Of a stretch of 64,000 nucleotides of DNA, positions 20,657 through 64,000 are shown piece by piece. Both the position numbers and the translations under genes were made by a program. The notes beneath the pieces are model-generated. The model had not been told where the DNA came from, searched no databases, and saw nothing but the letters and a program-made list of their open reading frames with translations. Every line of letters starts with the position of its first letter. The first letter of the stretch is position 1. This DNA is from Diplonema japonicum (Eukaryota > Protista > Euglenozoa: Diplonemea): assembly GCA_964019335.1 (NCBI GenBank), contig OZ025652.1, positions 248,001-312,000 on the forward strand, given 5' to 3'.

Positions 20657-20751
20657 ATCATTTTCTCCCTGCTTATGAAATATTCCATCTTTACAAGTTG
20701 GGAAAGAAGAGCCTTGAAGTCATGTTTTTGGAGAATCGCTTAAACAATAAT

Positions 20752-30558: not shown

Positions 30559-30798
30559 ATCCTCCCTCTGTAGGCAAGGTGTCAGAGAAAGGACAGGTGG
30601 TGGGAATGGAAAAAAAAAAAAATACAGATCGCCTATTCAGAGATTTCTCTAAATAAAATCAACACACTGCATTACTTTCGACGCAAGTTAAGAATACCGA
30701 AGCCCCCCAAGCAAGGGGGGTTTTTTTCTTCTCCGTTTTTTTAGAGCCCTTAAGCAGGAAGAAGACATCGAATACAAAAAAAGAAATCTAAACAACAT

Positions 30799-36893: not shown

Positions 36894-37002
36894 TTCTCTC
36901 TTTTTCCTTTCAGTTTAGTTAAAAAGGGCGACGACACAGACACAATATTTTCTTTTTTTTTAAAAAAAAAACTCAAACTATGGCACACCATAAGAACTAA
37001 CC

Positions 37003-38636: not shown

Positions 38637-41600
38637 TTACTTCTGCTTCTGGATGAATTTTCTGATAGCGTCTTGCTGCTGCTCGCCCTGAAGGTTCTGG
38701 ATCTTCATCGCCTCCATAGTACTGGGTGTGAGGACCTTGTTCAACCTGAAATCTTCCCTGTTCCCAGAAGGACGTTCCGAGAGGGATCCAGTTTTCGTGA
38801 AGAACAACTCCTCAGACAGAAGCTCAAACAAACCATAGAAGTTGTACATGAACTGAGGATCGGCATCATTGCAGCCCTTGTCAATGGTGCCGGCCATCAC
38901 GTGCGATAGGGTGTGGATGAGAACCATGCAGTACTCCCCGAGATTCGAGAGCTTTGTGTTACGAATGTACAGTGTTCTAGAAACAGCGTCCCAGTTAAAA
39001 GAGTTCCTGAAGGCTGTGTGGACATAAGGCGACTCCGCAAGCGAGCTCGCCACCGCGATCTGCACTTGTGGCATGTCACCACCCCTCATCTTCTTCAGTA
39101 CCTCTAGGACGTACTTCCCGTACTCGAACACCACTAGCTCCTCGGGTTTCAGCTGTGCTGTTGGCATCACCGCCAGCTTTCCTTCACACACTGTTTTCCT
39201 GTCACGCGGGTCTAAGTAGTAGCTCATGAACCCACCGCTGCTCCTCATCTCCCTCAGGATCGTTTCGATATCCTTCATCTTTTTCATTAGCGGGTCCACC
39301 AGCTGCAACGCCCAGTCCTGCGGTGTCGCCTTCACGCTCTTCTTCTTATCAAGCGATGTGTTCGACGACTTTCTCACATTCTGCACCGGCGTTCTCTGCG
39401 GTGTGTCGGGGTCCTTTTGATTCTGCGGAGCATCCTTCGGTTGTGTCTGCGGTGTTGCCGACACCTCCGTGTTCCTCAGAATCTCATCCTGGCGTCGCCT
39501 CTTCAGCGCCATTTGCTGTTTCTTCGCTGCCACACGCTTCTCATGAGCCTCCTTCTCCAACCTCTTCTGTTGAATATCCTGCTCCTCCAGATGTTGCTTC
39601 TTCGCTTGATACTCTTGGAATAGTCTCTCAGGTCTGTGTGGAGTGGTGTGTGGTGTATTTAAAAACAAGGCATACTCGTCTTCGTGGCGCATCTTTTCCT
39701 GCAGCTCCTTCTCGATCTCGTCCTTCTTGTGGTTCCTTTCTTTCTCGCGCCTCTCCTTCTCCTTGATGAACCTAGCGTTCTCCAGACGCATCTCTTCGTT
39801 GTGCTTCAGCTTGTCCGCTTCCTGCTCTTCGGCGATCTTGTTTTTGAGCTCCTGCATTTGCTGGTCGGCGACTTGCTTTTCCTTCTCCTTGTTCGCCTCC
39901 AACTCCTGACGGAATTTCTCGAGTTGCTGGCGAGTGCTCTCGGCCTCCTCGCGAGCGCGTCTTGTGGTGGCTGCTTGCAGTGCTGCAGTCGGATCCCCTT
40001 GGAGCTGCGAGGGTGGTGTGATGCAACATGTGGAACATACCTCCATGCAAGCGTCACCGATCTCTTCCCAGTGGCGGCACTTCATCTCCAGAAGCCTGGT
40101 GTTGTACTTCTCGTCCCAGATCTCGCTGAGCTCTTCTTTCACCTTCTCCTCCTCCTGATCGCTGGTTCTCTTCAGTTGCTGCTGCTCTTTCTTCACCTCT
40201 AAGAGCCATGAGTTCTTCAACTCGCTCAGCTCCTTCTCACTCTTGCTGGTGTCTAAGGTAGCGGCGTGAACCTTTTCGTCGTATGTGCTCTCCAGTGCCT
40301 GCTCTGTCGTCTTCAGAGCCTGGCGGAGATCTTGGCTTTTCCTGTAGAGTATTTTACTTTGCTTTTCTTAGTCATACTTTTGGATTGCTTCGTCCCTTTC
40401 GTTGTCACATGTTGTCTTCAGCTTCTCGAACTCTGCCTTGTGCCTCATGAACATGATGTGTTTGGCAGCAGTTTCTGCTTCAAGCTTATCAGACTCAACA
40501 GCCTCTTTAATTGCCGTCTTTTCTGCCTGTACAACGGCCTGGTGGTGGAATTCGTCCGCTTTCTTCTGTTGCACTTGGATGGCCTCTTTCATCTCGGTAT
40601 CGTGCTTTGCAGCAATGTCCTTCTTCTTCGCACGCTTCTTAGCTTCGATCTTCTCAAGCATTGCCCTCTTCTGGTTTTCCTTGTCAGTTGCGAGTCTCTT
40701 CTGCATCTCCGCAGACTGTGTCTTGTGCTCTTCCATGAGGCGCTGCTTCTCCTCATCAGTGGCCACGCTGTCGATCTTCGCCATTTGCTTGGATTTCATC
40801 TCCGTCATGATCTTGTTGTGCCCAGCCTTAAGCTGCTCTTCAGCACGGGCCTTTTCTTCTTCGAGCTCCTTGGCAATCTTCACTTCTAGGGCCTTCAAGC
40901 TGGCCTCTTGCTCTGCCTTAAGCTGCTCAATGTGGCGACGGTGCTCCTGCTGCATCCTGCCCTCCTCTGCCTGAGCTTCTTCCGAGATTTTCACCTGTGA
41001 GTGTATTTTCTTGCAGTGCCGCCACACCTGGTTGACATGCGACTTGTCAGTCTCCGGCTGTATGAGGATCGAGTTGATCTCCTTCTCGGACTTCGCGAGG
41101 TCCTCCTTCAGCTCTGCGTGCTGCTTGCGCTTGAGTTCTTCGGCCCTCTTTCTCCTCTTCTCCTCGAGCTTCTTGCGCACGGCATCACGCTGTTTGCGCA
41201 TTTCTTCCGACGCTTCAGCCATTTGACTGTAGTGTGGGTGGGTGTGGTTTGCGAGTGAGTCATACCTCTTTGTTTCTGCCATGTAACTCTGGTAGATGGC
41301 CTCACGTTCCTTCTCTGTCATCGGGCTCTTGCGCTGCTGCTCCTGCTTCTTGAGGCGGCGCTCGACTTCTTGCCTGAGTAGCTTCTCCTCCTCCTCCTTT
41401 GCTTCTCTCTGCAGCTCCTTCTCGATCTCACGCTTGGCCTGCGCCATGTCTTCATTGCGCTGCTTACGCTTTGCTTCGTTTTCGCGCAACTTGTCCTGCA
41501 GACGCTCTTTTTCACTCATGTACTCCGCCTGTGGGCCTGTCTCTGCACGCTGTTGTTCGATGATCTCATCGATCTGCTGCTTTTGATGTTCGATCTCAGC

Positions 41601-44600
41601 AAACTTTGCTGCCTGCTGCTTCGACGCAAGCTCGAGGTCCTTATGCTTCAAGCGATCGGCAAGCTGCTCTTCCGTAAGCTTCTCCTTCTCCGCGGCAGAC
41701 TGCTTCTGCTCATCCGCAAGCTTTGCGAGCTCATCATGCATCTCGTTCTCAAGCTTCTTTTTCTCTTCACTTGACAGCTCCCTTCCTCGAGAACGTGCCT
41801 CTTCTCTGAGCTGTTCCTTGTACCTCTCAGCAAGTTCTTTGGCCTCAATCTCGTCGAGCTCCTTCTGTTTTGCGGAAGCAAGCTCCATCTCAGCTTCCTT
41901 GGTCTGTTGCTTCTCGCGCTCAAGAAGCTCACGCTCCTTCTGCTGCTTCTTCTTCCTGCGGAACTCGCGCTGCCTGAGCTTGTCGTGCAGCATGCGGCGT
42001 TGCTTCTCAAACTCTTCCTCAAGCGACATGGTGCCAGCGTTCTTGCGTGCTTCGTACTCCGCGACGATCTTATCGACCTCCTCCTTTTCATCAATTTGGA
42101 TAGTCTTCTCGAGGCGCTGCTCGTCCTTGTGCTTGATTCCGAGCACCTTCTGCTTCTTCTCCTTACGTGCTTCAAGGTTACGGCGGATGACCTCCTTCTG
42201 TCCTTCGCGCACCTTCTTGTTCTCCATATTAATGAGCTCTAGGTCACGTTCGTACTTCTCCTTGAGTCTTTCACGCTCTTCGTCGCTAGTGGCATTACGC
42301 AGGTCTTCCTCTAGTTTCTTTGTCAGCTTGTCCTGAGCAATGCGCAGCTTGTCATCCATCGCCTCGTCGATGCGGTCGATCTCATTGTTTGCCTCGTGCT
42401 CAAGGAGCTCGAATTCGGCTTCACGCTCTTCGGCCTGCTTCGACTTCAATCCCTTCATTCGCGAGCGGTGCTCGCTCTTCAGCTCCTTCTGCTTGTCTGC
42501 TACCTCGGGGCTCTCCTCACCAACAATCTGCGGCTTATCAGGGCTGATAAGCGCCTTCTTCGTCTCTTCATTGGGCTGTTTGCCTTGCTCGCGTAGCCAC
42601 TGTTCGCGCTTCACCATCCTCTCCAGCCTCTCTTCTGCTGCCAATGACGGATCATCGCTGAGCTCAGCTGGCACATCGCCGGCTGCAATCTTGCTCCTTG
42701 CCTTCCCGGCTGCTAAGTGCAGAGTGGGGATCCTCTTGACCTCTTCCTCCTGAGATATCAGTTCTTGCGGCTCCTCAGGCTCCTTCATCAGTTTCGCTGC
42801 CTTGTACGCCGTCCTGGCCGCTGCTCTTGCGGTCCTTTCAGCCAACGGCAGCGACGGGTCGTCCTGCAGATCGCTGGGCAGTTGTGACATCTCCTCATGC
42901 GCTAGAAGGCCAGCCTTGAATGTGTCACGCAGGATAGCCCGCTTTTTCCTCTCCTCGGGAGACAGGTTGGGGTCATCGCGCAACATGCTGCTGATATTGT
43001 CCTCGAGGTTTTCTGCCTCCTTGGCACGCTTCACACCAGCTAGGAATGCCTTGCGTAGAAGCTCGCGTCGCTTCCTCTCCGTAGGTGCCAGGTCTTCATC
43101 ATCCTCCAGCTCTGCTGGCACGCCTGACTCTGGGTTGACAACGGCCACACGCCCCTTCTTGAAGGCCTCGATATTCGCCTCTTTCCTTTTCCTGTCCTCT
43201 TCCGACATATTCCCATCGAGGGCGATATCCTTTTGGGCGTCGATGCCCTGTCTCATTGCGTTGGTCATTTCGTTGGCCTGCACGCTGCCCCTTCTGAGGA
43301 GAGGGGCCACGCCTTCCTCCTCCTCAAGCTCAATAAGCATGCGCCCTGCCTTTCCAGCAAGACGTCCTTGCTTAGCAGCCTTCTGTGCAGAGCTGTCAGT
43401 AGCGTTCATGTCTTCAGGGAAGTCAGTTTCAGCTTCTTTTGCGGCAATACGCCCGCTTTGGAACGCTTCCGTGACGGCCTTTTTGTGCTCCTTCTGTTCT
43501 TGGGTCATTTCCGGGGTCTCCATCAGCTCTTCGCAGACGTTCAGCTGCTCCTGTGCGGCTTTACGGCCTTGCTTGAAGGCGTTCCTGAGGTGCCTTCTGC
43601 GTTCACGCTCCTCTGCGGGTAAGCTGTCGTCGTCAAGGATCTCTTTAGGGACGATGCTCGAGTCATCTCTGGCTGTTTGACCCTGGATGAACGCCTCCCG
43701 CTTTTCCAGTAGTTTCTGCCTTTCTTCACTAGAGAGCGTAGAGTCGTCCTGAAGCTCTTTAGGAACCTCGCCTGTTGGTGCAGCGCCGTCCCTACCATCC
43801 TTGAATGCGATACGCAGTGACTCCCTGTGCTTCAACTCCTCGGGCGTCAGACGGTCCTCCTCTGTTGTGAGCTCCCTGGCTGCCTCACCATGAAGGAAGG
43901 CCTCCTGGATGTCGTCGTCGAGTTCCACGATGTCCACAGGCGGCTTCTGGCCATCACGACCAGCCTTGAATGCAGCCTTCTTCGCTTCCAGTTTCTTCTT
44001 CTCCTCAGCAGACAGGCTCTCCGGTGCCTCTGGATCAAGAAGAGCGTTAGCGTTCTGTCCTTCGATGAAGGCCTCCTTCTGCGCCTGTCTCCTCCATCGC
44101 TCAGTGACAGACAGGGATTCGTCGTCCTCAAATTCGGGTGGCACAGCACCTTTCATGCCGCTCTCTCTGCCCTTTTTGAAGGCATCATTTAGCAACTGCT
44201 TGTGCTGCTTCTCCTTATCAGACTCAATTGTCTCAAGGGACGTGTATTTCTGTGCTGCTCTCCCTGTCTCGTAAGCTTCGCGCTGTGCAGCCAAGTCCTT
44301 CCTCTCCTCCGGCGACAGCTCCTCGTCGTCCTCAAGCTCGGGAGGCATGTTGGTGTCTTGCAAAGTAGAAGAGCGACCCTTCTTGAAGGCGTCTTTCATA
44401 GTCTGCATGCGCTTCTGCTCTTCATCTGACAATCCTTCCATCGGTGATAGGTCAGAGAGCATTGCTGCTTCTTGTCCCTTCTTGAAGGCAACAACCTTTT
44501 CGGGACTGTTCTTAAGGTCATCGGGCACAGGGCCTGTAGGGTTAACATCACGGCCACGGACAAAGGCTTCTTCAATCTCCTTCAGCTTCATATCGTTACT

Positions 44601-47600
44601 ATCTTGCGCTTCCGACATCGCCACACCCCTCCTGAACCACCTGAGCACTTCCTGTTTCGCTTCCGGTGGGCTGTCTGCAAGTTCATCTTCAAGTTCAGTG
44701 GGCAGCTCCCAAGAGCCGGTAGCGGCTTCACAACCCTTGGCGAATGCCTTCTGCAAGAGCTTGTTGCTAGCAACAGACTCATCCATGAGTCCGAGCCTCG
44801 CAGTTTCAGAACCTTCCATAAAAGCGTTGCGGAGCTCCTGTCGCATGGCACGTTCCGCTTCGGAAAGCTTAGGATCGTCCTTGTACGAGTCCGGCATCGG
44901 CTTGCCGTCCTTTCCAATGTTGAAAGCTTCTTTTACATTAGCAATGTGCTTGGTGTCTTCGGGAAGCAGCGTGGCAGCTGCTTGCCCCGCCCTGAATGCA
45001 CTAGCTGCCTCTTCATCCAGTTCCATAGGAGGGTTTTGAGCGTGGGGGGCAACTCTGCCACGCTTGAACGCAGCTTGAAGCTTCCCTCTCTGTGCCTGTT
45101 CAGCTTCGCTCAGCATAACAACCGGAGCCTCTGTGATGTCTCTGGCCAACTGTCCTTGCACGTAGGCCTCTAGAGCTTCTTTCTTGTACTCATCAGGAAC
45201 ATCCAGGTCTGGTGGCACTTCCCCATTGGGAAGTTTGCTGACTCTCCCTTGTAAGAAAGCGGCCTCAAGTGCTGCTTGTTTCTTCAGTTCATCTTGCGTC
45301 TTCCAAGTATTGGCATTCGTCAGATCTCTAGACGATCTCCCTTGTTCGTATGCCTCTACAAGATCCGTGTCCTTAGCGTACTCCGGCGGGCAAGGGGCAT
45401 CAGCAGATGGTGCCTGCAAACCTGCAATAAAGGCATTGCGGAGCTGGTCGTGCTTTTCCTTCAGGCTGCCTGTCAACGTGGTAGCCGATGAAACCTCCTT
45501 CTTCGACCACTGTCCTTGGCTGAAGGCAAGCGCAGCAGCTTGTCTCGACCATCTCTCTTGCACAGGCAAACTCTCGTCATCTGCGTACTTCTCAGGCACT
45601 TCTCCGAACGGCAAGTCGCTCTCCATGCCCTCCTTAAAGGCGTGCTTGAGAGCATCTTTGTTTTGCTGATCGTGCACATCCTTCAATGCAGCAGCATCAG
45701 AAGGTGTCAACATCGACAGTGGGACTCCCTTCAGCTCCACGGCCGCCTTGCCTTCGTTGAAAACTTGTTCGAGCTGCTGCTTCGCCTCGTCGTCGTCCTC
45801 AAGTTCTTCGGGGATATCAAGTGTGTTCTGCGCCTTGCGGCCCGTCATGAAAGCCTGACGCAGCTCGGCCCTCTTCTTCCTCTCTTCAGGAGCCAGCGTT
45901 TCGTCGTCGAGCATGGATTCAGGGATGGCTTGCTTTTTGTCAGCTTCTTGCTGCTGCTCAGCTGCCTTTTGCCAGATTTCTCTCAACTCAGCACGTTTCT
46001 CTCTTTCATCTGCAGGAAGCGTTTCATCGTCCAACAGCTCTTCAGGTATCTCCCCTGCCTGCACGACCTTACGCCCCTTCGCGAAGGCTTCACGCATTAC
46101 TTTCCTCTTCGCCCTCTCTTCCTCTGGCAGTGACGGGTCGTCCTCCATCTCCTTGGGGATCTCGACAGCGGGAACTGCTTCCTTTCTAAGCTCTGAAGCC
46201 TTGCCCTGCAAGAATGCCTCGCGCTGTGCCTGACGCAGCTCCGGATCACTGGCCATTACGTCCAGATCAGCATCCAGTTCTGCTGGAGCACTACCGTCAA
46301 GATCTGCCTTCTTCGCAGCCATCTCCCAGACCTCACGGAGCTCTGTGTTGTGTTTTATCTCCTCAGGGATAGCCTCCTCGGCAGCCTGTTTGCCCTGCTG
46401 GAAAGCAGTTTCCTGCCTCTCCATGATAGTCTGCTTCTCAGTAGCTGTGAGGGTCATGCCATCAGGCACAAGGGGTTTCGAGAATGAGATTCCTTTACCC
46501 TCCAGGACAGCATCGGTAGCCTGCTTGACGGGCGTAGTTGGCTCCTTCTCCTCAGCAGGAGCGTCGCGTGCAACAAGCAGGTTGTGCCAGTTGCTCTCTC
46601 GTTCAAGACCTGCCTTCAGCCTGTCTTCAGTAGAGGCCGAGCGGACATCTGTGATGTTGCTTGGAGTGAAGGCATTGCTTCTGGCCCACTGATGACGCCT
46701 CAGGAGGCGGTCCAGTCTCTCTTCCAAAGGCTGTGCTGCATCTTCAACGTCACCATCAGCGATGGACACAGCAACGGTACGTCTCCACTGGTCACGCTGA
46801 GCTGCTGTGTTCACGTAGTCCTCGTCAGAAGCAGACGGATCTTCTTTGAGCTCTGCAGGCATGTCTTGTTCCAAGCTGTGTAAGTTCAGGCCGGTCCTCT
46901 TGTGTTCACGCTTCTCTGCCCTGCTCCTGCGCTCCTGCACAGAAAGCGCCGTGTCATCTGCCAGTTTCAAATCGCACGAGATGCAAGTGTCATCAGGCAC
47001 CATGTCGTTAGCCCTCTTCCACTCTTCCCTCACAAGCATTCTGCTGACCCTGTCGTCCATTTCGAGGGACGAGTTGTCCTTCAGCTCCTCAGGTAGGTCG
47101 GCCTCGTCGGCAAGGTTATTCTGGTTCCTCCAGTTGTTGCAGGCAAGGACTCTCTCGATACGCTCGTTGCGGCTGGCTTCAGGGTCATCGAGCATCTCGA
47201 AAGGACACTGCCCGTTTCTCCTCCACTGCTCCCTGAGCAGCAGCCTGCGGAGCCTCTCCTCAGCAGGCAGGCTCTCGTCATCGATGATGCTTGTTGGCAT
47301 GACGTCTTCCTCGTTCTTCTTAACTTCTGCCAAGCGCTTCCATTCCTCACGCTTCTTCATGCGGTTGATGCGCTCCTTGTCGGAGATGAACTTGTCGTCC
47401 TTCAGCTCGTCGGGCATGTCTAGGTGCTCGAGAGCCTCGCCTGTGTCGTCTTCGGAAACAGGCGAGTCGGGTGGCGGGGAGCTGGCCTCGTTCTCGAAGA
47501 CCTGGAGGGCGGGAGGGCCGTCCTCGTAGAGCCCTTCCTCTTCATCACTCGAGACCTCCACATTGAGGTGCTTCTTCAGGACGTCCAGAAGCTCTTTCTT

Positions 47601-50600
47601 CATGTTGTCGGGGATGTCGGCGTCCTTGTTGCGGAGCTCTTCCTGATCAGTCTGCAGTTTGTTGAACATCTCTTTCAGCGCTTCGGTCTCACCGTAGATC
47701 TTGTCATACAGCATGACCTGCTGGTCCGCTTGGTTGGCAAGCTGCGACACGATATGGATAGTTTGGTCCTCCAGCTTGTCGTACAACGTGCGCACGTTGA
47801 AGCCCTCCAGATCGACCTGTCTCTCGTAGTCCCAGAACTCGTCTTCCATGGCCTCCAGGTCAACACCTGTGGGTTGAACCACAGCAGTGCTCCTGTCGAT
47901 GAGCCCTACATTGGTGATGTCCCCGTTGTTGGTGATGAGCTTTTCGTAAGTAGGCGAATTCTCGTCCATGCACTGCTTCACGAAGTCAGCTGCCATGGCG
48001 TCACTGTTTGGAACAGCGAACACGAAGTCAACAATGGCGGATCCTTGCGTCACAGAGAGAATCTCGACACACTTCTCTGAGACGCTCATGATGCTCGCTA
48101 CGTCGTTGATGAAGAGGTACCTGTCGAAGGCGGAATACTCCATGTTAAAGGTTAAAGTTACGGCCTTCCCGCCGTTTACCTTAGGAGCAGCCGTAGCTAG
48201 TTCCTCGAATTCAAGCGAGGCGGCGCTAACATCCGCCCTCACAGTGGCGGCAAAGGCCTGGCTTACGAGCTCGCCCGAGATGAAGTCCGCGTTCAGCACG
48301 ACAGCGTTTCCGCGGATGTCAGTGTCATCGACCTTGAGCAGCGTGAACGGCGGGACGATGTGTTCCGCCTCGTCGGGGTACTGACCGCACCCTGCAAGCG
48401 GGATGCTGTGCTGCAATCCTGTGAGGATGATACCCACAGATGAGTCTTCCTCCTGAATACTCCTGACCCCCCCCTGGTTGAACGTGAATCCTGTGGGACA
48501 GGTAAGTCCCACCTCTTTCGAAGGGATGACGTTCTCAAGCTCAGCACGGGGAACATTCTTGAAAACGGCGCAGATGGGCTGCAACTGAGCGGGCTCCGTG
48601 AGGGACAAAGTGGTCCCAAGGAACTTGCACCAGGCCTGCAGGTCGTCGCGTTCCATCGCAAGACGCTTGCGCATGATGTCATGAAGGACAAGAGAAACGC
48701 TAGTGTTCCTGCTCTTGTACTGCTCCCAATGGTCGTCCTGACACTGATCGTATGCAGGCGGTGCGTCGGTGAAACCAAGCAAACGGTCGACGTCAGCACC
48801 TTCTTGCGTGAGCAACACAATGCACAGTACTTCTATAGACGGCTTGTTCATTAGCTCCATCTCTGCCAGCTGATCGCAAACCACTGCAAGGACAGCCTTA
48901 GGATCAGACCTATCGGGGAAATTGAGATTTGCCGCAAGTTCGTCGATCACAGTTCCTGGTTTTTCAGCGTACATGCGCTGAACGGTAGCGCGGAGGTCGC
49001 TCATGGTCTCTTGAGCATCGCCCTCCTCCATGCCAGGGTGCAGCGGAGGGCCGCCTGAGTTCCACTTTGCACCAGAGCTGGGACCGCTCCCAGGATGTCC
49101 AAGAGTGCGGACGGCTTCCTTGATCCTGTCGACTTGCTCTGTGGTCACCTTGCCGGAAGCAACACATGCATCGATAGGCGATACAGACATAGGTAGGCCA
49201 CCACCCGCAATATGAGGCATACTGTCCGCCTTCAGTTGGATACGCTTCGTTGCCGATCCCTTTGAAGCAACAGCAGCAAAACCACCGTGCTCCAAAGCAT
49301 TCATTCCCAACGTGCGGTACTTGGGGACCGAAGAGCCAACCATGCCCCATGTCTGCACTCTGAAGTGCCACAATCCTGCAATGACACCAATCACCAGGAT
49401 GAAGAGCCCAACAAGCAGTACACCAATGAGGACCCAATCAGGTGCCAAGATGATGTTGTTACTCCTCGACACTCCGAAAGACACTAGCACCGTGTCAGTG
49501 ACGGGCTGCACCTGGGAGTTTGATGGACACCTTTGGTGCGGCTCCACAACACGGATAATAGTCAGAACGTTCTCGTCACAGAAGGCAGGGTGGGAAGTGC
49601 ACTGCATAAAGACATAGACACCAGCTTGGTTGAAGGTCGCTATGAAACTTGTTGGCGGGTTCTGACCATTGAGCTGTGAAACCAGCTCACGGAAAAGACC
49701 AGCATCGAAGAAGAGGTTCGTATTGAGAAGGGAGTCCTTGAAGTACTTAGGGTATGACACGCTAACGTCGAACAGTAACCCTTCACCGCTGTTGAGACAC
49801 ACGGCTGGGTTAGGGATGGACTTGACCACAGTGGTGGCCTGCAGGAGGCGCCTGCTTGTCGCAGAGTGAGCCGACGCAGTGGAACTGTTGCCACTGCTGG
49901 CTGTCCCGCCAAGCATGTTTTCGATGAGCCAGTCAGGAGGGTCGTATACGCCCTCGCTCTGTGTCGTCGATGCCTGCATGACACGCAATTTGCAGGTTGC
50001 GGTTGTCGAGCAATTGTGGCTCGACCCACCAAACAAGCCGCTGCTGGTCAGAGACATCGTCTTTTCCACGCCGTCCTTCGTGTACACGACCAGCCCATTG
50101 CGGATGGAGACTGTTGCCTCGCTTGCTCTGCATGCTTCATCGCACACGTCGTTCGGTAGCTTGATGGAATCACACTTGCATATACCGACAGTCGGGTCAG
50201 CTGTCCCTTGGGCGTTCGGACACGCCTTGCACAGCGTAGCCACATCAGTAACGCAGCTTCCGCCTGAGGCACGTACGGTGCCCGGTGCACACCTGTCGAG
50301 GATTCGCTCCTGGCAAGCAATAGTCGAGTCTTCGTCTGAAAGCCTGAAGTTCTCGTCATAGTAGATATAGTTCGGTTTGCAGATGCACGACTTGTCGCTC
50401 TGTTGGAAGACTCTGTTCAACCCCAAGCACTCGCACACAGTGGCACCAACCTGCGACGTGGACGACCTTCCGCAATCCTGGCAGCGGTCTTGCGCCCACA
50501 AACTATTGTAAGAATCCGCTGGGCAGTTGAGGCACGCTTCTCTTCCCTTACCTTTTGTATCCGGGAAGTACGTCCCTGGCGAGCAAGGCTCTTCCACGGT

Positions 50601-53600: not shown

Positions 53601-56600
53601 ATTGGGAGTCTCCGCATTGCTTCGTACACCATATGTTCCTGGCAAACACGGGTTTGTTTCCGGGTTCCCAGTGCTTTCGGGGCAATAGAAACCTTCAGGG
53701 CAGTCCTTTGCAACTACATAATCACCCGATGAACAGAGTTCGAGGTTGTAGCAGTACTGACCAGCAGGACAGGGTTCACACGCAGCCCAACCAGTTCCAT
53801 TTGAGCGCGTCCCACTTTCGCAGCGCAACCATATTGCAGAACCAGCGGGGCAGTACTGACCAAATGGACACGTCAGATTCGTAGGTGCTGCTTCGTGCTG
53901 ACCTTCAGGGCAGTAGTACCCAGCGTCGCATTGTCCGGTGGGGGTAGAGAGCCCTGTTGTGGCACAATAGTTTCCAGGGGTACAGGGAATGCATTCGGTA
54001 AGTAACACACCACCTGTCGCTGAGAGAAGGGTCCCAATCGGACATGGGGTAGGTTCCGAACTTCCTTCGGGGCAGTAGTTCCCTACCGGGCAGATGTCAC
54101 CAACGGGGTCGCCGTTTTCCAAAACAGGAACACCCGGAGAGTTGGTAGGCATCGCTCTGTCCGAAGAGCGGGTGCAGTAGTAGCCTTCGTTGCATTGCGC
54201 TGTAGGAGCCAACAGACCTTCCGTCGCACAGTAGTGACCAGGGTCACAAGCTGTGCACGCCTCTACCGTTTCCAAACCTTCGGCATTGCTGTAAGTACCC
54301 AAGGGGCAGGGGAACTGTGTCGCGAACCGCGTGTTCAATGGGCAATAGTGGCCACGGGGACAGATCTCAGGTGACGTGTAGTTCGAATTCGGGCAGAAAT
54401 TGGCAGCATCGCAGTAGTACCCAGCAGGACAGATGGTGCAGTTGACCTGGCCAGTCTCAGACGTGAAAGTACCTGATTCACAAGGGAGTGGAGCACCGCT
54501 CCCCTCTGGGCAGTAGTGTCCCATGGGGCAGATGAACTCAGATGGTGCAGGAACCTGCGAGCCTGCTGCTGTTTTACCTGGGCAGTAATAACCCTCAGAG
54601 CATTTCAAGGCAGGCGTAACCAAAGCCAGCGTCGGGCAGTAATAACCTGGGGTACAAATGTGACAATCGACGAGAGACTTCCCGTATTTATTGGGGTTGA
54701 AGGTCCCGATCGGGCATGCAACAGGCGCCACCGACTCAGCCACGCAATAATGACCAGTAGGACAGGCATTGCCAGTCGTACCATCTTCGGGATTAGGGAT
54801 CACAGCAGAGCCCGTACAGTACCAACCAGCAGAGCACACATCTGTAGGCAGGCTCAGTCCAGCAACATTACAGTACTTTCCTGAGTCACACGGCTGCATT
54901 TCGCGGCTCCCTTCAGGGCAGTAGTTTCCAGGCGAGCACCTGCCGCCGGTCCCTGAGATCGTCGGCATGCTGTTCGATGCATTGATGGTGCAGTACCACC
55001 CCGCTGCACACAGCCCCGTTTTGTTTGACGACCCAAAACTACACCAGAAGCCAGCGTCACAGGCTAAACAGTCTCCTAACGAATCAATCATCGTGAATGG
55101 GTTGTACGAGCCAGCAGGGCAGTCAAGGGGCGCCGCTGATCCCTCAGGGCAGTAGCTACCTGAAGGGCACATTGCACCATCAGGTTTGCTATCAGTCCTT
55201 CCGCTGAGGCAGTACCACCCTGGTGCGCAATCACCTGTCACGGCAGACAACGCGGACTCTTTACAATACTTCCCAGCATCGCATGTGCTGCAGTCGCCCA
55301 GCAACTGTCCTTGCACAGCAGGCCTGTAGGATCCTGGAGGGCAGCCAGTAGGCAACGTTGATTTTGTGGGGCAATAATGACCAATTGGACAGATACCTGC
55401 CACACCACCGAGAACACCCACTCCTGCAGTCACCGTGCTCGCCCCCGATTGACAGTAGTATCCTGATTGGCACACAGCGTCAGGGTTTACCAACCCATCA
55501 GTGGTGCAGACATCGCCACCTGAGCAAGGGGTGCACTGGCTCTGCGAAATCAAGCTTGTCACGTTGCTGAAACTACCAGACGGGCACCTTGGGATATTGC
55601 TGTAGTCGCCTGTCCCTGTAGGACAGTACATGCCTTCCGGGCATGACGCGGGCACAGTCGTTGCAGAACCACAGTAGTATCCCTCGGGACACTGCGCACA
55701 TGAAGAGAAGCCTGGTCCAGTAGTGTACGTGCCCGCGGGGCACGGTGCAGGTGTGACTGTTGCAATGTCCGATGTCCAGCCATCGAGAAGCGTTTCCACC
55801 GACTTGTCGGGTTTTCCAAAGTCCGTCACTAAGTTCAACGTAGGACAAAAGTGACCGTGAGGACAGGCGCCGCCCTTCATGTTGCTGCACAACCCGTCGC
55901 ATGGATTCTTTGAGCACATCCTGTCTGTGCAACCTGTGGGGCAGTAGTATCCCGTCGAGCAAAACGACGTAACAGCACGATTCCCAGGGCCCTCACAGTA
56001 GTAGCCTGGAGAACATGGAACGCAAGCACTAATGTTGGTCGCTTGTTCATCAGGCTGGAAAGTACCCTCGGGACAAGGGCTAGTCACGTTTGACACAGTG
56101 CCCTCCAAGCAATAATGCCCTGGAGGGCATTTACCTGCCTCACCACCCAGGATACCTACCTCAGCCATTGCGTTCCTGGCACCAGAACTACAATACCATC
56201 CTGCAAAACATTTGCCAGACGTCTCATTTAAACCTGACTCCGCACAGTACATCCCAGCGTCGCACAACTGACACTCCGTCATGTTCTGCAACCCTCTGAG
56301 GGGGCTGTACGAACCTGAAGGGCATTCTGGAATTGCCACACCGGTGCCTTCAGGACAGTATTTCCCTTCGGGGCAAATCTCCGGCGTAATGCACTGCTGC
56401 TGACAGTAGTAACCTGCAGGACACGTATAGCACTTTGAGTGCCCTGTAGACGAAGCATACGTCCCATCGGGGCATGGGATGGGTGTCACTGTGCCGATAT
56501 CGGATGTAAGGCCGAGGAGTAGCGTCTCCACTGCGGGAAGAGGGTTCGTTTGTGTAGGGCAGTAATGCCCTCTTGGACAGGCACCCCCTTTCATGTTTTC

Positions 56601-59600
56601 GCAGAATTGGCTCGTGCACGGCAGGTTCTGGCATTGTTGATCGCTGCAACCCAGTGGGCAGTAGTACCCTGGCCTGCAAATCCCAGTGATGTTGATCTGA
56701 GCTTCTCCTTCACAGAAAAACCCAGGGGGGCACGTCAAGCAAGCGGTTTCATTGGTTCCACGAATTTCAGGCTGGTACGTCCCTGTCTGGCACGCGTTAT
56801 CGTTAGCACCCCTTGTCCCCTTCGGGCAAAAGTAACCCTTGGGGCATGGACCTGTGTTCCCGCCAAGCTCTCCCAACAAGCCTTGTGGATCCCCAGCACC
56901 ACTCGTGCAGAAGTATCCAGCGTCGCAAGGGCCAGTGGTTTCGTTGTTACCAGTATTTGCGCAGTACATTCCAGGGTCGCAAAGAGCGCAGTCAGTTTTT
57001 TGTACATTGTTATTGTTGGGGCTGTAAGAACCCTCGGGACACATCGGTTGATTCATGCCAGTACCGCTAGGGCAGTACCTGCCTGTGGGGCACGGACGTG
57101 CCTCGTACTCAGCATGGCCACAGTAGAAGGCCTGTGGACACGTCGCGCATGTGTCCTGTGCCGTCGAAGCGGTGTACGACCCCTCCGTGCATTCAACAGG
57201 TGTGATGGTTGACCTTGAAGTGATGGTCCCGCTGCCCATCGTGACAGTGGAAGCTACTCCAGTTTCAGTGGGGCATTTGTGACCCACAGGACATGCACCA
57301 CCTGCCATGTGCCCGCAGTTGGTGTTGCAGGGGTTGTTCGAACACTTTGAGTCGGCGCATCCACTAGGTGCGTAATACCCTGTTTCGACCATGTCGGTGA
57401 CGGTGTAGAGCGCTGTTGTTTCACAATAATACCCAGGTGTACAGGGAAGACACGAATCGATGGAAACCCCCCCTAAGTTGGGGTTGTAGGTCCCGATAGG
57501 GCATGGGTGTGTGGTTGCCGTGAGCGTTCCGTATTCACAGTAGTAGCCTCTGGGGCAGACACCACCAACGCCACCCATCTCGCCTACAGTACCATCTGCG
57601 CCTGCTGCACCCGCAGTACAATAGTAACCGCGGGAGCACCATCCGGTGACGTTTCCAGCACCAGGTGAAAGGCAGTAATTACCAGGGTCGCACATAGTAC
57701 AGTCAGTGATGTTGTGGAGTCCTGTGCTCGTGGAGTATGTCCCAGGTGGGCACGGGGTGTATGTGGGCTCGGGAGTGCCCTCATTGCAGTAGTACCCGAC
57801 AGGGCACGGCTCGGGCGTGTGAGCCGATGACGGCATGATTGCGTAACTGCACCAGCTGCCGTATGGGCAAATCAAACATTCTGAGAAGCCTTCCGCTGGA
57901 GCATAGGTACCAGCAGGGCACGCGACGGGATCGATTGGACCACGGACCTCGGTGTTGCCAGTCCTGTCGTTCGTCCACGAACCCGAAGGGCAGTAGTGAG
58001 CCTTGGGGCATACACCACCTGCAGCGTACGGAGGAGTCTCGTAAGGTGAAGGATGTGCACAGTTGGTGAAACAAGGTTGGTTCGAGCACGTGTCGTCAGA
58101 GCAACTAGTGGGGCAGTAGTATCCTGCCTTACATGGTCCAACAGGTTCAGCCAGACCGCTACCAGTACAGTAGAATCCGGGTGTGCAAGGCAGACATGAA
58201 GTTTCATTACTCTGCATTTGGTACGGATTGAAGGTACCAGCAGGGCAGGGGTTCGATATGTTGGACGGCGTCCCCTGCGGGCAGTAGTGGCCAGCAGGAC
58301 ATGCACCTCCGTACCCGCCTAGCTCACCGGCTTCACCGTAGTGATCAGCAGCACCAACAGCACAATAGTATCCCTCCTGGCAGAAGGCTGCATCTGGGAT
58401 CGCCGTCATGGCTTCGTCTTTGCAGTGAAGACCTTCAGGGCACAGTTTGCAGTTTGTGATGTTCTCCTGTCGCGTGAGGTCGAGGTACGTACCAGGCGGG
58501 CATTTCGGAATGTCCAGCGTCGTACCTGGAGGGCAATAATGCCCCTTCAAGCAGTCCGTCGGTACCGATATCCCAGTCCCGCAGTAATACCCAGTAGGGC
58601 ATTCGATACATGATACGAAACCGTTCCCGGGGGAGTACGTCCCCTCGGCACATGGCGTTGGCGTGATGGCGCCTAAAGTGCCTGGTGTGACCTGCGGGCA
58701 GTAGCTTCCAGGTGGGCAAGCCCCGCCCGTTGCGCCCGCTGCACCAGGTGTGTTGCTGCAGTATTGGTCAGAGCACCCAAACGGACAGTAATACCCAGGA
58801 GCGCAAGGTCCTGTGGGCTCAGGTAGCCCCTCTGTTTCACAGTGCATTCCAGGCAAGCAGGGAAGACAAGCGGTTTCATCCACTCCCAGTTTTTCGGGGT
58901 TGTAAGTTGCAATAGGGCAGGGGTGGGAGATGTTGATTGCAGTCCCGTTGGGGCAAAAGTGTCCAGTAGGACATGGCCCACCTTCACCACCAAGGGAGCC
59001 GACTTCACCCCTACCAGTGTACGCTCCTGATGTACAGTAGTAACCGGCAAAGCAGTCGGGAGTAGTCGAGTCGATGGACCCATGGCCATCTTCTGGACAA
59101 TAAAGCCCCGCCGGACACGGGAGGCAGTCTGTGCTGTTTTCGTTATACAGTGTGTGGAAGTACGATCCCTTGTCGCACAAGGGCATTTGAAAGTGTGTTC
59201 CTTCAGGACAGAACCTACCAGGCTGGCAAGGCTGAGGTTGGCGAGCAGACATGACTCCGTTGGGGTCAACTGCACCACGGTCGCACCAATGTCCTGCGGG
59301 GCATATTTTGCAGCTTGCCTTCCCCATCTCGTTTTGATACGTCCCATACAAGTTGAGATACCAATTACCGAAAACATCGGCCACCTTTTCGCAAGGAATA
59401 GGCCAATCCGTACCTGTAGGACAGTGGTATCCACGAGGGCACTTTCGAGGGCCCTGTGACGCCAGGACTGTGTCCAACACCGCGTACTCTGTCGTCTCTC
59501 CCGGATAATTCGAACACGTGGACGTGTAGCAGCCGCACCCTATATATCCAGAGGGGCACACTTCACCAGTGGCAGCTCCAGGGCAGTAGTATCCTTCCTG

Positions 59601-62600
59601 GCACCGTTGTGGTTGTGAACCAGGAATCCTAAATGCCATTCCTGTGCTGTCACAGTAATACTGTGGAGGGCACGGTCGGCATGCGATTTGTTTGTCCGCT
59701 CCGAGAGTTTGATCTCTGAAAGTCCCTGCGGGGCATGCAAGCGGTGAGCCTGTTGCATTAGGGCAATAGTGACCAAAGATGCACTCACCACCATACGGGT
59801 TGAGAAAACCGCTGGAAAAGGTGGCAGGGAGGTTATCTTCGACATCTGTGGTACCCGGAACAACATACTGAGAGCATGTGGACGTGACGCACCCTGTTGC
59901 GCAGTAGTACCCTGTGGAGCATGTTCCTGTTGGTTCAGAGGCGTTAACGAACTCGCAGTGGTAACCAGACCTACACGGCAGGCAGTCCGTGATGTTCTGG
60001 CGTCTCGTCACCGGCTGGTATGTCCCGGAAGGACAGCTCTCAGGAACGATCGACCCAGCAGGGCAGAACGAACCAGGTGGACACGCAAGGTATGTAATCA
60101 TTGCCCGCTCGGGGCAGTAGTTCCCTAAAATACACGGCTGGCAGTCACCCTGCCCTACTGAAGGGTTGAATGTCCCAAGGGGACATTCCACAGGGGCAGA
60201 GGCACCCGGTCCCGTGTAATGGCCAGCAGGTGTTCTGAACTGTGTCGGCAGCTTCGCTTTACCAGTGCAGTAGTACCCTGCACTGCACGGTCCTGTGGGG
60301 TACGGCAGGTTGGACCCACTGCAGTAGAACCCTGGTGTACAGTCAATGCAATCCTGCTGACTTGAGCCGCCCGTGAAGTTGTTGAAGGTGCCCTCGGCAC
60401 ACGCTGTAGGGTACGACGATCCAACAGGGCAGTACCCACCCTTGGGGCAGAGCCCCCCAGTAGGAAGTCCAGAGGGAGCAGACGTAAACGCTCTCGAGAT
60501 GCAGTAGTAGCCAGGGTCGCACAGACCAGTTGGGTGGGTCAAACCCATCCCATCGCAGTAGTACCCAGCTGTACACGGCGTGCATTCTTCTTGGCTCCTC
60601 AGATCTGTCGAGTTACCGAAAGACCCAAGCGGACAGGGTTCCGGCTTGCTGCTACCTGCCACGCAGTAGTAACCCCGCGTGCATGAAACGGGCGATGCTG
60701 TTCCTTCGGGACAGTATGAACCGCGAGGACACACAGCACAGAATTCTTCGCTCTCGGCTTTCGGTTGTAACCTGTAGTACCTTGCCGGACACGCTTGCTG
60801 CTTCGGACCTGTCGACCCTTGCGGGCAGTAGTACCCCGGTGAACACTCACCTGTGACATTGGCCATCCCTTCGAAAGCACAATAGTACCCCGCCTCACAC
60901 ACAGTGCACTCTGTAACACTTGCCTTGCCGATGAGGGGGTTGTAGTAACCAACAGGACAAGCGACTGGGTCAGGAGTTCCGGTAGGGCAGTAGTGTCCTT
61001 CAACACAAGAGTGGTGGTCGGCCTGAGGGACATGGTTCGTGCCATTACCACAAAACAGCCCAGCAGGGCACAGGAATAAGCGCTCCTTGTGCTCTTTAGT
61101 AGTGGTATCCAAGGGACAGTAGTACCCCGCCTCGCACAGCGAACACTCACCCCATCCTTCGTCAGAGTAGTACCCGATCCCACAGGGCACAGGGTCGTCG
61201 GACCCCTGAGGGCACGCATACCCAGCAGGGCAAGTCAAGCACATGCGAGCGTCAACGTCCTTTGTGGGTCCAGGACCGATGGTGTTGTTGCGCGAAGAGT
61301 ACGTTCCCATTGGACAGGGTTGCATCGCACTGCTACCAGCAGGGCAATGGTGCCCCGGCAAGCAAGCCTTGCACTCAGACTCAAATCCAAGACCTGTCTG
61401 GTCGTTATATGTCCCCTGCGGGCACGGGACCTGCGTAAGTGTAAAAGACTTAACAGGGCAGTAGTGGCCGAGACCGCAAAGTGCGGTAGGCTGAGATTCA
61501 CCACCAAGACAGTAGTAGCCCTGCGGGCAGTCAGTACACTGGTCTGCGGTCCACAAAGAAGTGGAATTCGTATATGTTCCTTGCGGACACGGGAACTCGG
61601 TGGCACTCCCAGCACGTTCTCCGGTGTAGGAAGCAAGGTAGAATTCGAGTTGGTTACCAGGAGTCGGTACACCGGGGCAGTAATGGCCTTGCGCACAGAC
61701 AACAGGCTCGTCGTTAGGGGAGATACCCGTACCGGCAGGACAGGCATAGCCTCGCCAGCAGATCTCACAATCTTGCATTCTCTTCAAATCGGTTCTGAAC
61801 GAGTACGCACCAGCAGGACATGCGTTCGCTGTGGCCAGTGCCGTACCTGTTGGGCAGTAGTGTCCGGCAGCACAAGGTGTTAGGTGCGAGTCGGTTTGCT
61901 GCGTTGCTTCACAAGCCCATCCAGCCTCGCAAGGCCTGCACCTCGTGGCACCGTTCAATGGTTGGAACGAACCAGCCAAACATGGTGTTGCAGCTATCAT
62001 TCCGCTTGTCGGGCACTGATGCCCAGCTGTACATTGCCTGCACTGACTAACTGACACCAACCTAGTAAAAGCGTTGAACGTGCCCGGTGGACACGGATTC
62101 TCATATTCGCTGCCCGTACCGGTGGGGCAGTAGAACCCAGGGGGGCAGTCGTTGGCAGCATAGCTAGCTGTTCCCGCTGCGCAGTAGAATCCTTCTGGGC
62201 ACAGCACGCACACGGTCCTTGTAACTGCACCTTGAGTACCACTGTACGTTCCGCTAGGGCAAGGTGTCGGCTGCGCTGACCCTTCAGGACAGTAGAACCC
62301 TTCAGGACATTTGATAGAATCACTGATGCCAGCAGTTCCTTCGGCACACGAATAACTGGCAGGGCAGTCATAACAGGCCTGGTTCACTGACTCACCATGT
62401 GTCATGTTTCCGTAGGTACCTGCTGGGCAAAGAGTAGCTACGACAGCTGCAGAGGGGCAGTATGACCCTACTGGGCATTCGTGGCCTTCTGGGGTAGGTG
62501 TGGTGCCACCAGCTGGGCACAAGTAACCTCCGTTGCAAGGTTGGCAAGCAACAGAGCCAACATAACTCCAGTACCCAGCTGAACAAGGTGTTGGTGCTGC

Positions 62601-64000
62601 ATTCGTTGTAGGGCACATGGAGCCAGCGGGGCATAGCGTGCAACTTGTTTGGCTCTGGGCGCTGGTGTATGTCCCAGAGTCGCACGTCTTGGGCGATTCA
62701 TAAGGTGTCGTGCAGACCTGTCCTGCCGGGCACGGGACGCAGGACACAGCACCCGAAACGACGAAGGTCGTTCCGACCGCAGGATACGTTCCAGACGTGC
62801 AGAGGGTCTTTCCACCATCTGGGAGGGTAGGCGTAGGGCACTGGTACCCAAGAGGGCACTTAGTGCACGCGATCGACCCTGCTGGCGCGTACTCACCGGC
62901 AACACATGCAACTTGCCTTCCTACGCCTAGAGGACCGATCCAAGGTTGGGAAGCAGCAACAGCAGTCTTCGGGCAGTAGTAGCCCGGGTCACAAACGTGG
63001 CACGTAGTTTCGCCTGGCTGCGTGAAGGAACCGTTGATACAGGGGGTGACAATGTCCTGTGTGGTGCTTGGGCATGCTGAACCAGCAGGGCACTCAACGC
63101 ACGCGGATTGCGCACCAACACTGTAAAACCCAGGGGAACATATCACTGGTGCGAACTGCTCGCGATTAGCGTTGGGGCATTCATGCCCAGGCGGGCACGC
63201 TGTGCAGTTTGTTTGTTCCCTTTCAGAGAAATACCCCGAGTCACACGGGATCATCACAGAGTCTTCGGTCGTAGGGCAGTAGAAACCAGGGCTGCAGGAA
63301 GTGCATTTTATTTGTCTCCCTGCAGAAAAAGTACCAGGCTGGCACTCTCTTGCTGTTTCGAATCCCGTCGTGGACGGGCATTCAAAGCCAGGAGGGCAAT
63401 CCGTGCAGTTCAGCGACTTTGCATAGCTGTAGCTCCCCTGAAAACAGGGCTCCGGTGCAGTCCATTTGTTCGGAGAATACCATCCAGCCTCAACTAAGTG
63501 GCACTCGTCGTCCAGTTCTTCGCTGTAGTACCCCGAAGGGCACCATACGGGACTTGTCCCGTTATAGCATGCCTTTCCTGCTTGGCATGGTGAGCACTCC
63601 GTCTGCCTTGCGAATGAGTAATGACCCGGGGGACAGCTAACGGGCGCCATTGAAACGATCGGGCACTTGGACCCAGGGGGGCAATCCAAACATTCAGTAT
63701 TACCCGGGATCCTGTACATCCCCGACAAACAAAGCTCGATGGTGTAGTTCTGAGAGAGAGCATCGAACTTGCAGCTGGCACCACGGGGGCACTCGGAACA
63801 GAAGGACTCACCTTCAGGTGAGTAGTACCCCTGCTCTAAGTCACAAAGCTGAGGAACAGTGGAAGTGTTTGCGCACCTGTAGTTGGCAGGGCAAATCGAG
63901 CATCCGGTACTGCCTTCGAGAGAGTACGTATTGAGGGGGCAGTCAACTGGAGACGAAGTTTTACTGGAGCAGTACTGCCCAGCCGGGCACAGAGTGCAGT
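38637..64000 (-). CDS. Giant (>8300 aa, 5'-incomplete) single-pass membrane protein: GCC2/GCC3 (ephrin-receptor-like) Cys-rich ectodomain, TM ~49363-49437, multi-domain cytoplasmic tail
   Basis: Frame stays open from 63998 through the 7786-aa ORF, with very many CPxGxYCP/CxxC repeats and TM WVLIGVLLVGLFILVIGVIAGLW. A 36-nt intron at 40342-40377 (GTATGA...CTACAG) removes the apparent stop and joins ORF 38637..40220 in frame. Confidence 0.92.
39634..41265 (-). other. Cluster of five predicted mini-introns in the giant gene: 41227-41265 (39 nt), 40995-41027 (33), 40342-40377 (36), 40005-40040 (36), 39634-39675 (42)
   Basis: Each has a GTATG or GTGTG donor, a C/A-rich body and a CAG acceptor. 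Each interrupts coiled-coil sequence with an off-composition peptide (e.g. LANHTHPHY, VCSTCCITPPSQ, LNTPHTTPHR). Confidence 0.75.
42600..47450 (-). repeat. Degenerate ~35-aa protein repeat array (P-x-E-L-x-D-D-x-S-L-x-x-E-E-R...R-x-A-F-x-x-G)
   Basis: Examples: IPEELLDDETLPADEREKRAELRE, IPESMLDDETLAPEERKKRAELRQAFMTG, VPKEILDDDSLPAEERERRRHLRNAFKQG. Confidence 0.85.
55380..59250 (-). repeat. Higher-order super-repeat (~225-250 aa, about six copies) in the Cys-rich ectodomain
   Basis: Marker (G/A)-x-x-G-x-(L/M)-G-G-x-x-G-x-C recurs near 58990, 58320, 57575, 56865, 56148 and 55410. Confidence 0.8.

What the first reader, a model, noticed from the sequence alone, without database searches (positions are those of the whole stretch)
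38637..64000. Giant surface receptor with a multi-module cytoplasmic tail (ART-like, SEA-like, repeat array, coiled coil, HxxxH domain)
Seen: after splicing, one >8300-aa protein has over 4700 aa of Cys-rich ectodomain, an RRLL site before the juxtamembrane domain, one TM and ~3500 aa on the other side. Recalled knowledge: the motifs EFWDYERQVDLEGFNVRTLYDKLEDQ and AFRNSFNWD...TLYIR...VLIHTLSH resemble an uncharacterised family of giant Cys-rich proteins found in diverse eukaryotes. Here extra modules sit between those conserved blocks. Inference: a receptor coupling a very long extracellular rod to intracellular (pseudo)enzymatic and cytoskeletal modules, possibly flagellar. Annotation from the ORF track alone would split it into two genes and miss the architecture.
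Basis: partly seen in the sequence, partly recalled or inferred. Interest (0 to 1): 0.8.

Follow-up and report, generated by a model that had tools for sequence, protein, structure and literature searches.

The report
Giant surface tether with dead enzymes
This is one spliced gene in a likely diplonemid (marine flagellate) for a membrane protein of more than 8,400 residues from an ancient, barely studied family that reaches from protists to birds; it likely works as a cell-surface tether, ending in a predicted inactive metalloprotease fold and, in this lineage, carrying an added, likely inactive ADP-ribosyltransferase-like domain.

Summary
Spliced RNA-type contigs from two close relatives remove the stop-bearing GT-AG intron at 40342-40377. 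They also remove three more short introns, and the Diplonema papillatum orthologue has gaps at each. The result is one reading frame of about 8,400 aa, 5' end outside the window: Cys-rich rod, RRLL site, juxtamembrane domain, one TM, and a 3,500-aa tail.

The protein belongs to a widespread eukaryotic family (692 representatives). It is very likely the 'CAST multi-domain protein' family, found in one paragraph of one paper. The family core is the rod, a dibasic site (104 of 148), one TM, the EFWD block, a charged helical tail and a C-terminal domain. That domain folds as a Wss1/minigluzincin-type zincin, but its HxxxH lacks the catalytic Glu.

The extras are lineage-specific: ART-like in 2 of 150 homologues, a ferredoxin-fold 'SEA-like' domain in 4, and 36-38-aa repeats in 3. 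The ART-like domain lacks the R and STS motifs.

Best reading: a convertase-cleaved, non-enzymatic transmembrane tether with pseudo-enzyme binding modules. A flagellar role is untested and the evidence is mixed.

The parts
50199..64000 (-). Cys-rich rod (aa 1-~4600 of the 5'-open frame), GCC2/GCC3 (Ephrin_rec_like)-type repeats; the N-terminus lies outside the window
   Evidence: about 10% Cys, 119 CxxGx[YFWH]C motifs; PF07699 E 9e-4, below the gathering cut-off; window aa 1 aligns to aa 261-557 of three long homologues
49842..49853 (-). RRLL, candidate proprotein-convertase site (aa 4716-4719)
   Evidence: RR/furin-like motif just before the JM domain in 104 of 148 homologues vs 3.1% of 2260 control windows
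49434..49838 (-). conserved juxtamembrane domain, fold unknown
   Evidence: 148 of 150 hits; no Pfam or PDB match; Atlas look-alikes unnamed (on homologue P0011)
49377..49433 (-). single transmembrane helix (aa 4856-4874)
   Evidence: only hydrophobic segment; one TM in 62 of 66 homologues that hold JM and C-terminal domains
48189..49043 (-). ART-like (ADP-ribosyltransferase-like) domain, R and STS motifs not conserved, ExE present in 2 of 3 sequences
   Evidence: Atlas 0.96 to PF03496/PF01129 clusters; PDB profile hit E 0.21 over the ExE region only; alignment; present in 2 of 150
47904..48182 (-). ferredoxin-fold 'SEA-like' domain with GSAIV motif
   Evidence: model block pLDDT 50-73; best Z 9.2, generic ferredoxin folds; FAZ1_cons E 0.005; 4 of 150 plus L002
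47649..47843 (-). EFWD...VRTLYDKLEDQ block and short helix, family hallmark
   Evidence: 117 of 150 by iterated HMM, 0 in reversed control
42609..47441 (-). acidic helical repeat region, including 31 copies of a ~36-38-aa unit (aa 5840-7006)
   Evidence: window 31 copies, P0002 16, P0001 12, P0004 4, none in the other 147 of 150
39483..42581 (-). E/K/R/Q-rich predicted coiled-coil/helical tail, interrupted by the introns
   Evidence: 40-55% EKRQ; median 0.39 in 55 homologue tails; coiled coil inferred from composition, not modelled
41227..41265 (-). intron, 39 nt, GTATG..AG
   Evidence: skipped in X2; 13-aa gap in P0001
40995..41027 (-). candidate intron, 33 nt, GTGTG..CAG
   Evidence: pattern scan; 10-aa gap in P0001; not covered by the listed RNA contigs
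40342..40377 (-). intron, 36 nt, holds the in-frame TAA that splits the ORF track
   Evidence: skipped in X1 and X2; 12-aa gap in P0001
40005..40040 (-). intron, 36 nt
   Evidence: skipped in X1 and X2; 12-aa gap in P0001
39634..39675 (-). intron, 42 nt
   Evidence: skipped in X1 and X2; 14-aa gap in P0001
38778..39242 (-). C-terminal zincin-fold domain (Wss1/minigluzincin-like); HTLSH at 38901-38915, no Glu after the first His
   Evidence: model pLDDT 84; Wss1 Z 9.6, rmsd 3.1, 108 aligned; Foldseek top hits selecase and Wss1, E 0.065-0.1; motif counts
38637..38639 (-). stop codon; the X1 contig has a further piece at 38280-38474 (3' UTR, inferred)

Best explanation
One intron-containing gene encodes a single-pass membrane protein of more than 8,400 residues, likely of the 'CAST multi-domain' family, that likely acts as a non-enzymatic transmembrane tether. 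Shown: splicing, one frame, one TM, conserved order of modules. Inferred: the Cys-rich part faces outward as a disulfide-linked rod of some 200 nm or more (own estimate from repeat size). Inferred: a secretory convertase cuts at RRLL, so the rod can be held by, or released from, the membrane-anchored half. Inferred: the EFWD block and its helix oligomerise the protein under the membrane, and the long charged helix is a spacer. Inferred: the C-terminal zincin fold, lacking its catalytic Glu, is a metal- or peptide-binding anchor rather than a protease. Euglenozoans added a ferredoxin-fold domain and repeat arrays; diplonemids added an ART-like pseudo-enzyme, likely a binding module.
For: Splicing in two related RNA-type runs and gaps in the orthologue. 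47 of 60 listed strain variants in the frame are synonymous. N-glycosylation sequons number 51 in aa 1-4750 and 9 in the remaining 3652 aa, and five long homologues begin with signal-peptide-like segments, judged by eye. A dibasic site precedes the JM domain in 104 of 148 homologues vs 3.1% of controls. The distance from EFWD block to C-terminal domain ranges from 114 to 3645 aa in 63 proteins, with unrelated repeats in some, as expected of a spacer. The zincin fold is conserved (H 55/67, H 52/67), but Glu is not among the six commonest letters (65 of 67 rows) at the catalytic position. The ART-like domain lacks R and STS in all three sequences. Pfam finds no catalytic domain in 30 of the homologues scanned.
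Against: No localisation, binding or cleavage data exist here. Vertebrate members have a short tail (114-158 aa) and have lost the His pair, so a long internal spacer is not universal. Two His and a downstream Asp (47 of 60 rows with a letter) are conserved and could support Glu-independent chemistry; YbeY is a zincin-like hit. ExE is kept in 2 of 3 ART-like domains. The ART-like part was not modelled with confidence (pLDDT < 50).
Confidence: 0.55

Rival explanations
1. A signalling receptor: ligand or force on the rod, or shedding at RRLL, switches on an intracellular activity, either Glu-independent metal chemistry in the zincin domain or NAD/ADP-ribose handling by the ART-like domain.
For: Receptor-like topology with a conserved processing site; conserved H-x-x-x-H...D; ExE retained in 2 of 3 ART-like domains; the ART-like domain sits directly under the membrane.
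Against: The catalytic Glu is essentially absent from the family and both His are lost in the vertebrate rows shown. ART R and STS are not conserved, and the domain is in only 2 of 150 homologues.
Confidence: 0.2
2. A flagellum-specific structural part (hair, coat fibre or attachment-zone link).
For: All 22 of the 30 looked-up homologues that carry an organism name come from lineages with a flagellated stage (flagella from own knowledge). The zebrafish gene of the name that P0111 carries is in a list of testis-upregulated genes (10.1101/650218, passage). The SEA-like part has a weak FAZ1_cons match (E 0.005).
Against: PMC4501334 (passage) reports the family absent from Tetrahymena and Paramecium, which are heavily ciliated. 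The 30 look-ups were hand-picked from 150 of 692 hits. Most eukaryotic lineages are flagellated. The FAZ1 match is below the cut-off.
Confidence: 0.2
3. Two genes, or a nonsense-disrupted gene, with the last 1.7 kb transcribed separately by trans-splicing.
For: The raw ORF track shows a stop at 40368-40370. Diplonemids make monocistronic mRNAs by spliced-leader addition (PMC10161547, passage). No contig spans the whole gene.
Against: The stop lies in an intron removed in two studies' contigs, and one contig runs 38655-40909. The D. papillatum orthologue and 66 of 150 homologues hold both ends on one chain.
Confidence: 0.03

Closest known systems
'CAST multi-domain protein' family (PMC4501334, appendix section on extracellular proteins; examples OXYTRI_15408, Cvel_3066)
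   Same: Cys-rich extracellular region, single TM, conserved cytoplasmic coiled-coil region; stramenopile and chromerid members (two Vitrella proteins are among my hits)
   Different: The passage names no C-terminal zincin fold, RR site, ART-like, SEA-like or repeat modules, and no discoban, metamonad or vertebrate members. The two named example proteins could not be fetched for direct comparison.
Uncharacterised vertebrate genes si:ch211-286b4.4 / 'zonadhesin-like' (P0111, P0143, P0099, P0121, P0104)
   Same: JM domain, TM, EFWD block and C-terminal domain in the same order
   Different: Tail of 114-158 aa between EFWD block and C-terminal domain; His pair lost in the rows shown; no ART-like, SEA-like or repeat inserts
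Apicomplexan CRMP / GCC2-GCC3 domain proteins (PMC9843837, passages)
   Same: Large surface proteins with PF07699-type Cys-rich repeats
   Different: 8-10 TM segments there, one here
Wss1/WLM and minigluzincin (selecase) metalloproteases; YbeY
   Same: C-terminal fold (Z 9.6 to Wss1, 7.6 to a YbeY-type protein)
   Different: HExxH is H-[A/C/S/T]-x-x-H here; about 10% identity; sits at the end of a membrane protein's tail
R-S-E class ADP-ribosyltransferases (PF01129, PF03496)
   Same: Language-model features (0.96) and the ExE-strand region
   Different: R and STS motifs not conserved; below Pfam detection

Membership tests
CAST multi-domain protein family | Cys-rich extracellular repeats | tested here: met
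CAST multi-domain protein family | single transmembrane domain | tested here: met
   62 of 66 homologues
CAST multi-domain protein family | conserved cytoplasmic coiled-coil region | tested here: met
   EFWD block plus helix in 117 of 150; EKRQ-rich tail; coiled coil inferred from composition
CAST multi-domain protein family | homology to the named examples Cvel_3066 / OXYTRI_15408 | not testable with these tools
   not fetchable by name; Vitrella proteins P0072 and P0085 share the JM domain (E 1e-42), P0085 also the EFWD block (4e-6); neither shows the C-terminal domain
Zincin metalloprotease (Wss1/minigluzincin) | zincin fold | tested here: met
Zincin metalloprotease (Wss1/minigluzincin) | HExxH with catalytic Glu | tested here: not met
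   HTLSH here; A, C, S, T, V, I fill 65 of 67 rows
Zincin metalloprotease (Wss1/minigluzincin) | zinc binding and proteolysis | not testable with these tools
   needs an assay
R-S-E ADP-ribosyltransferase | ART fold | tested here: inconclusive
   Atlas 0.96 with recognition 2143, below 2300; PDB profile E 0.21; model not confident
R-S-E ADP-ribosyltransferase | conserved R and STS motifs | tested here: not met
   alignment of three sequences; motif positions placed by eye from recalled ART consensus
R-S-E ADP-ribosyltransferase | (Q/E)xE motif | tested here: inconclusive
   present in the window and P0001, altered in P0002
SEA domain | ferredoxin-like fold | tested here: met
SEA domain | specific match to SEA structures or profile | tested here: inconclusive
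   no SEA chain among the rows shown; no Pfam SEA hit; GSAIV resembles the recalled GSVVV motif
CRMP (apicomplexan) | multipass C-terminal membrane region (8-10 TM) | tested here: not met
   one TM vs table in PMC9843837

The most novel reading that the evidence does not exclude
An ancient, probably pan-eukaryotic class of giant convertase-cleaved surface receptors, kept from discobans and metamonads to birds. It passes a mechanical or adhesion signal from a rod hundreds of nanometres long to a Glu-less zincin domain with its own metal-dependent chemistry, and in diplonemids has been wired to NAD/ADP-ribose sensing by a captured ART-like domain.
Probability: 0.17. Interest if true: 0.8.

Novelty: new variant of a known kind. 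Interest (0 to 1): 0.5.

Why it matters
This family spans many eukaryotic supergroups, including fish, frogs, lizards and birds. My searches found one descriptive paragraph and one gene-list mention, and its members carry misleading automatic names. Defining its core (dibasic site, JM domain, EFWD block, Glu-less zincin) makes it nameable and testable in a diplonemid and in zebrafish. The diplonemid version shows a hot spot under the membrane where new modules are inserted. The gene also shows how short in-frame introns hide inside, or falsely split, long ORFs in these genomes.

Tried and rejected
No whole genome is held for this window, so paralogues and genome-wide intron statistics could not be examined. 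The run search listed no holder on record as RNA; X1 and X2 are treated as RNA because they skip GT-AG introns. Cover of 44100-64000 by X1 and X2 was sparse (13 small pieces, no joints), which says nothing either way.

Three word-indexed protein searches gave nothing: C-terminal domain against 381-2000 aa, ART-like domain against 192-613 aa and 614-2000 aa. These are weak negatives. The single-sequence fold of the ART-like part failed (pLDDT < 50 for residues 1-295). PDB sequence searches for the ART-like, C-terminal and JM parts gave no significant hit. A cupredoxin-like fold for the JM domain was guessed by eye and not supported by any search. The EFWD pattern scan of prokaryote genomes found no relative.

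Whether the EFWD block binds the C-terminal domain was not tested; no complex prediction was obtained. Three look-ups of earlier scan findings returned nothing. Paper searches without a relevant description. each returned only PMC4501334, and only 10.1101/650218. A rule that all introns in this organism are multiples of three was considered and not supported: other intron-like candidates in the window are 41 and 43 nt (not RNA-checked).
Full report
Setting. The long ORFs that match Pfam families all lie on the minus strand. The closest named homologue is from Diplonema papillatum: P0001, 55% identical over 901 aa. The introns are 33-42 nt, start GTATG in four of five cases and are CA-rich. This fits what PMC12621601 reports for diplonemids ((G)/GTATG donors, medians of 41-42 nt in two species, CA-rich motifs; passages). 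One-strand gene clusters fit PMC10161547 (passages). The source is therefore inferred to be a diplonemid. No whole genome was available.

One gene. The ORF track shows 7876 aa (40368-63998, 5'-open) and 576 aa (38637-40367) in the same frame, split by one TAA. Contigs of two runs from related organisms (X1, X2; about 98% identical; RNA status guessed by the tool) skip 40342-40377, 40005-40040 and 39634-39675, and X2 also skips 41227-41265. One X1 contig runs from 38655 to 40909. Two DNA-type runs cover 38655-50000 without gap or difference. The D. papillatum protein has gaps of 13, 12, 12 and 14 aa at these four places and a 10-aa gap at a fifth, 33-nt candidate. P0002 diverges and ends at the position of the first intron, which suggests the same annotation break in another genome. 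With four introns out, the frame is 8402 aa. Of 60 strain differences inside the frame, 47 are synonymous. These are 26 of the 40 rows shown (14 lay outside the gene; 70 more rows were not shown) and 34 of 35 rows (one row adjacent to another was dropped). No contig bridges the full 25 kb, so the single mRNA is shown for the last 2.3 kb and inferred for the rest.

Anatomy. About 4600 aa with 10% Cys and 119 CxxGx[YFWH]C motifs come first, then RRLL (4716), a ~135-aa juxtamembrane (JM) domain, one TM (4856-4874) and 3528 aa of tail. Sequons are 51 before aa 4750 and 9 after, so an N-out topology is inferred. Window aa 1 aligns to aa 261-557 of three long homologues, so a few hundred residues are probably missing at the 5' end.

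The family. A 901-aa query from JM to EFWD block found 692 representatives at E <= 0.001; I analysed the 150 listed. Iterated HMMs found the JM domain in 148, the EFWD block in 117 and the C-terminal domain in 66 of 150, many of them fragments; reversed sequences gave 0 for the four HMMs tested. Of 66 proteins with JM and C-terminal domains, 62 have one hydrophobic segment between them and 4 have two. A dibasic motif lies just before the JM domain in 104 of 148 (strict RR[LM]x in 37), against 3.1% and 0.4% of 2260 control windows. Of 30 hand-picked hits, 22 carry an organism name: diplonemid, euglenid, jakobid, heterolobosean, ancyromonad, metamonads, ichthyosporean, oomycetes, Incisomonas, Vitrella, crinoid, fishes, frog, lizard and turkey. 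An unrooted FastTree of 64 sequences and 382 columns (the 63 hits with all three domains plus the window) places the window with D. papillatum (1.0), then with P0004/P0008 and Entosiphon (0.97), in a group with Percolomonas (1.0). The two Chromosphaera proteins fall apart, which suggests old paralogues. An origin near the eukaryotic root is inferred, not tested.

What is in print. An appendix passage of PMC4501334 describes a 'CAST multi-domain protein' family: Cys-rich ectodomain, single TM, conserved cytoplasmic coiled coil. It reports the family in chromerids, Oxytricha, stramenopiles, choanoflagellates and coccidians, and absent from Tetrahymena, Paramecium, Cryptosporidium and Plasmodium. 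It was the only paper returned. I could not fetch its two example proteins, so membership rests on architecture and on two Vitrella hits. The zebrafish gene name appears in one preprint, in a list of testis-upregulated genes (10.1101/650218, passages). I read passages only and opened no supplements; supplements of PMC4501334 and PMC10161547 may list these proteins. The library lacks most subscription journals.

What is extra here. The JM-to-EFWD distance has a median of 80 aa in 116 proteins and is at most 225 in all but two; it is 499 and 542 in P0002 and P0001 and about 530 in the window. The gap holds two domains. The first scores 0.96 to ART clusters in the Atlas, with recognition just under the tool's bar, and gives a weak PDB profile hit to an ART over the ExE strand only (E 0.21). 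Pfam does not see it and its single-sequence model failed. In the three sequences that have it, the R and STS positions (placed by eye from the recalled consensus) are not conserved and ExE is kept in two. It occurs in 2 of 150 hits and none of four metagenome loci. The second domain models as a ferredoxin fold (best Z 9.2; generic hits, no SEA chain shown), with a GSAIV motif and a weak FAZ1_cons match. It occurs in 4 of 150 hits and in L002, with a degraded look-alike in L001 by eye. A ~36-38-aa repeat is found 31 times in the window and in 3 of 150 hits. P0078 has a different repeat at the same place. It is met for the helical tail and the HxxxH domain.

The C-terminal domain. Folded with a 33-row alignment it reaches mean pLDDT 84. 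The best structural matches are Wss1 (Z 9.6, rmsd 3.1, 108 aligned; second Wss1 8.1), a YbeY-type protein (7.6) and minigluzincins (7.4). Foldseek ranks the same proteins first but not below E 0.001. The two His are present in 55 and 52 of 67 rows, but the position of the catalytic Glu holds A, C, S, T, V or I in 65 of 67, and the vertebrate rows shown have lost the His pair. It has a zincin fold but fails the HExxH test. My searches found no paper that describes this domain in this family.

How it likely works. The two enzyme-like domains lack key catalytic motifs. The tail length varies thirty-fold (114-3645 aa in 63 proteins), while the dibasic site, JM domain, TM, EFWD block and terminal domain are kept. 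The simplest reading is a structural one: a cleavable extracellular rod tied through an oligomeric membrane anchor and a helical spacer to an intracellular binding domain (0.55). A signalling receptor with unconventional chemistry (0.2) and a flagellum-specific part (0.2) remain open. The flagellar idea has the named taxa and the testis listing for it, and the reported absence in Tetrahymena and Paramecium against it. Two genes is very unlikely (0.03).

Verdict. New variant of a known kind; interest 0.5.

Noticed in passing
window 39634-41265: All five introns of this gene (four RNA-supported, one candidate) are multiples of three (33-42 nt), four lack a stop, and all cluster in 1.6 kb near the 3' end of a 25-kb frame. 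Other intron-like candidates in the window (starting at 25044, 41 nt; 26243, 43 nt) are not multiples of three and were not RNA-checked.
   Followed up: partly
window 27332-27802 (-): Transposase fragment, DDE_Tnp_1_7, E 5e-14.
   Followed up: no
window 13997-20719 (-): 2240-aa open frame made largely of ankyrin repeats.
   Followed up: no
window 20752-23334 (-): Smg8/Smg9-like protein (E 4e-11), with an intron-like stretch starting at 20955.
   Followed up: no
window 28546-30636 and 35151-36914 (-): Glycoside hydrolase family 31 and flavin-containing monooxygenase genes.
   Followed up: no
window 37720-38240: Stretch just downstream of the gene where many contigs of all four runs pile up with loose ends and high summed depth, i.e. 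a repeated or low-complexity element.
   Followed up: no
protein P0078: A homologue with the same TM and EFWD block followed by about 2000 aa of a different tandem repeat rich in D, G, P and Y; the tail seems to be a hot spot for independent repeat expansion.
   Followed up: partly
L001 ~7700-8050; L002 2577-2862: Metagenome homologues with an open frame from JM domain to EFWD block, with a ferredoxin/SEA-like insert (L002 by HMM, L001 degraded, by eye) but no ART-like domain.
   Followed up: partly
window 4839-7442 (-): 867-aa frame encoding a secreted-type, Pro/Thr-rich single-pass protein with no Pfam match.
   Followed up: no
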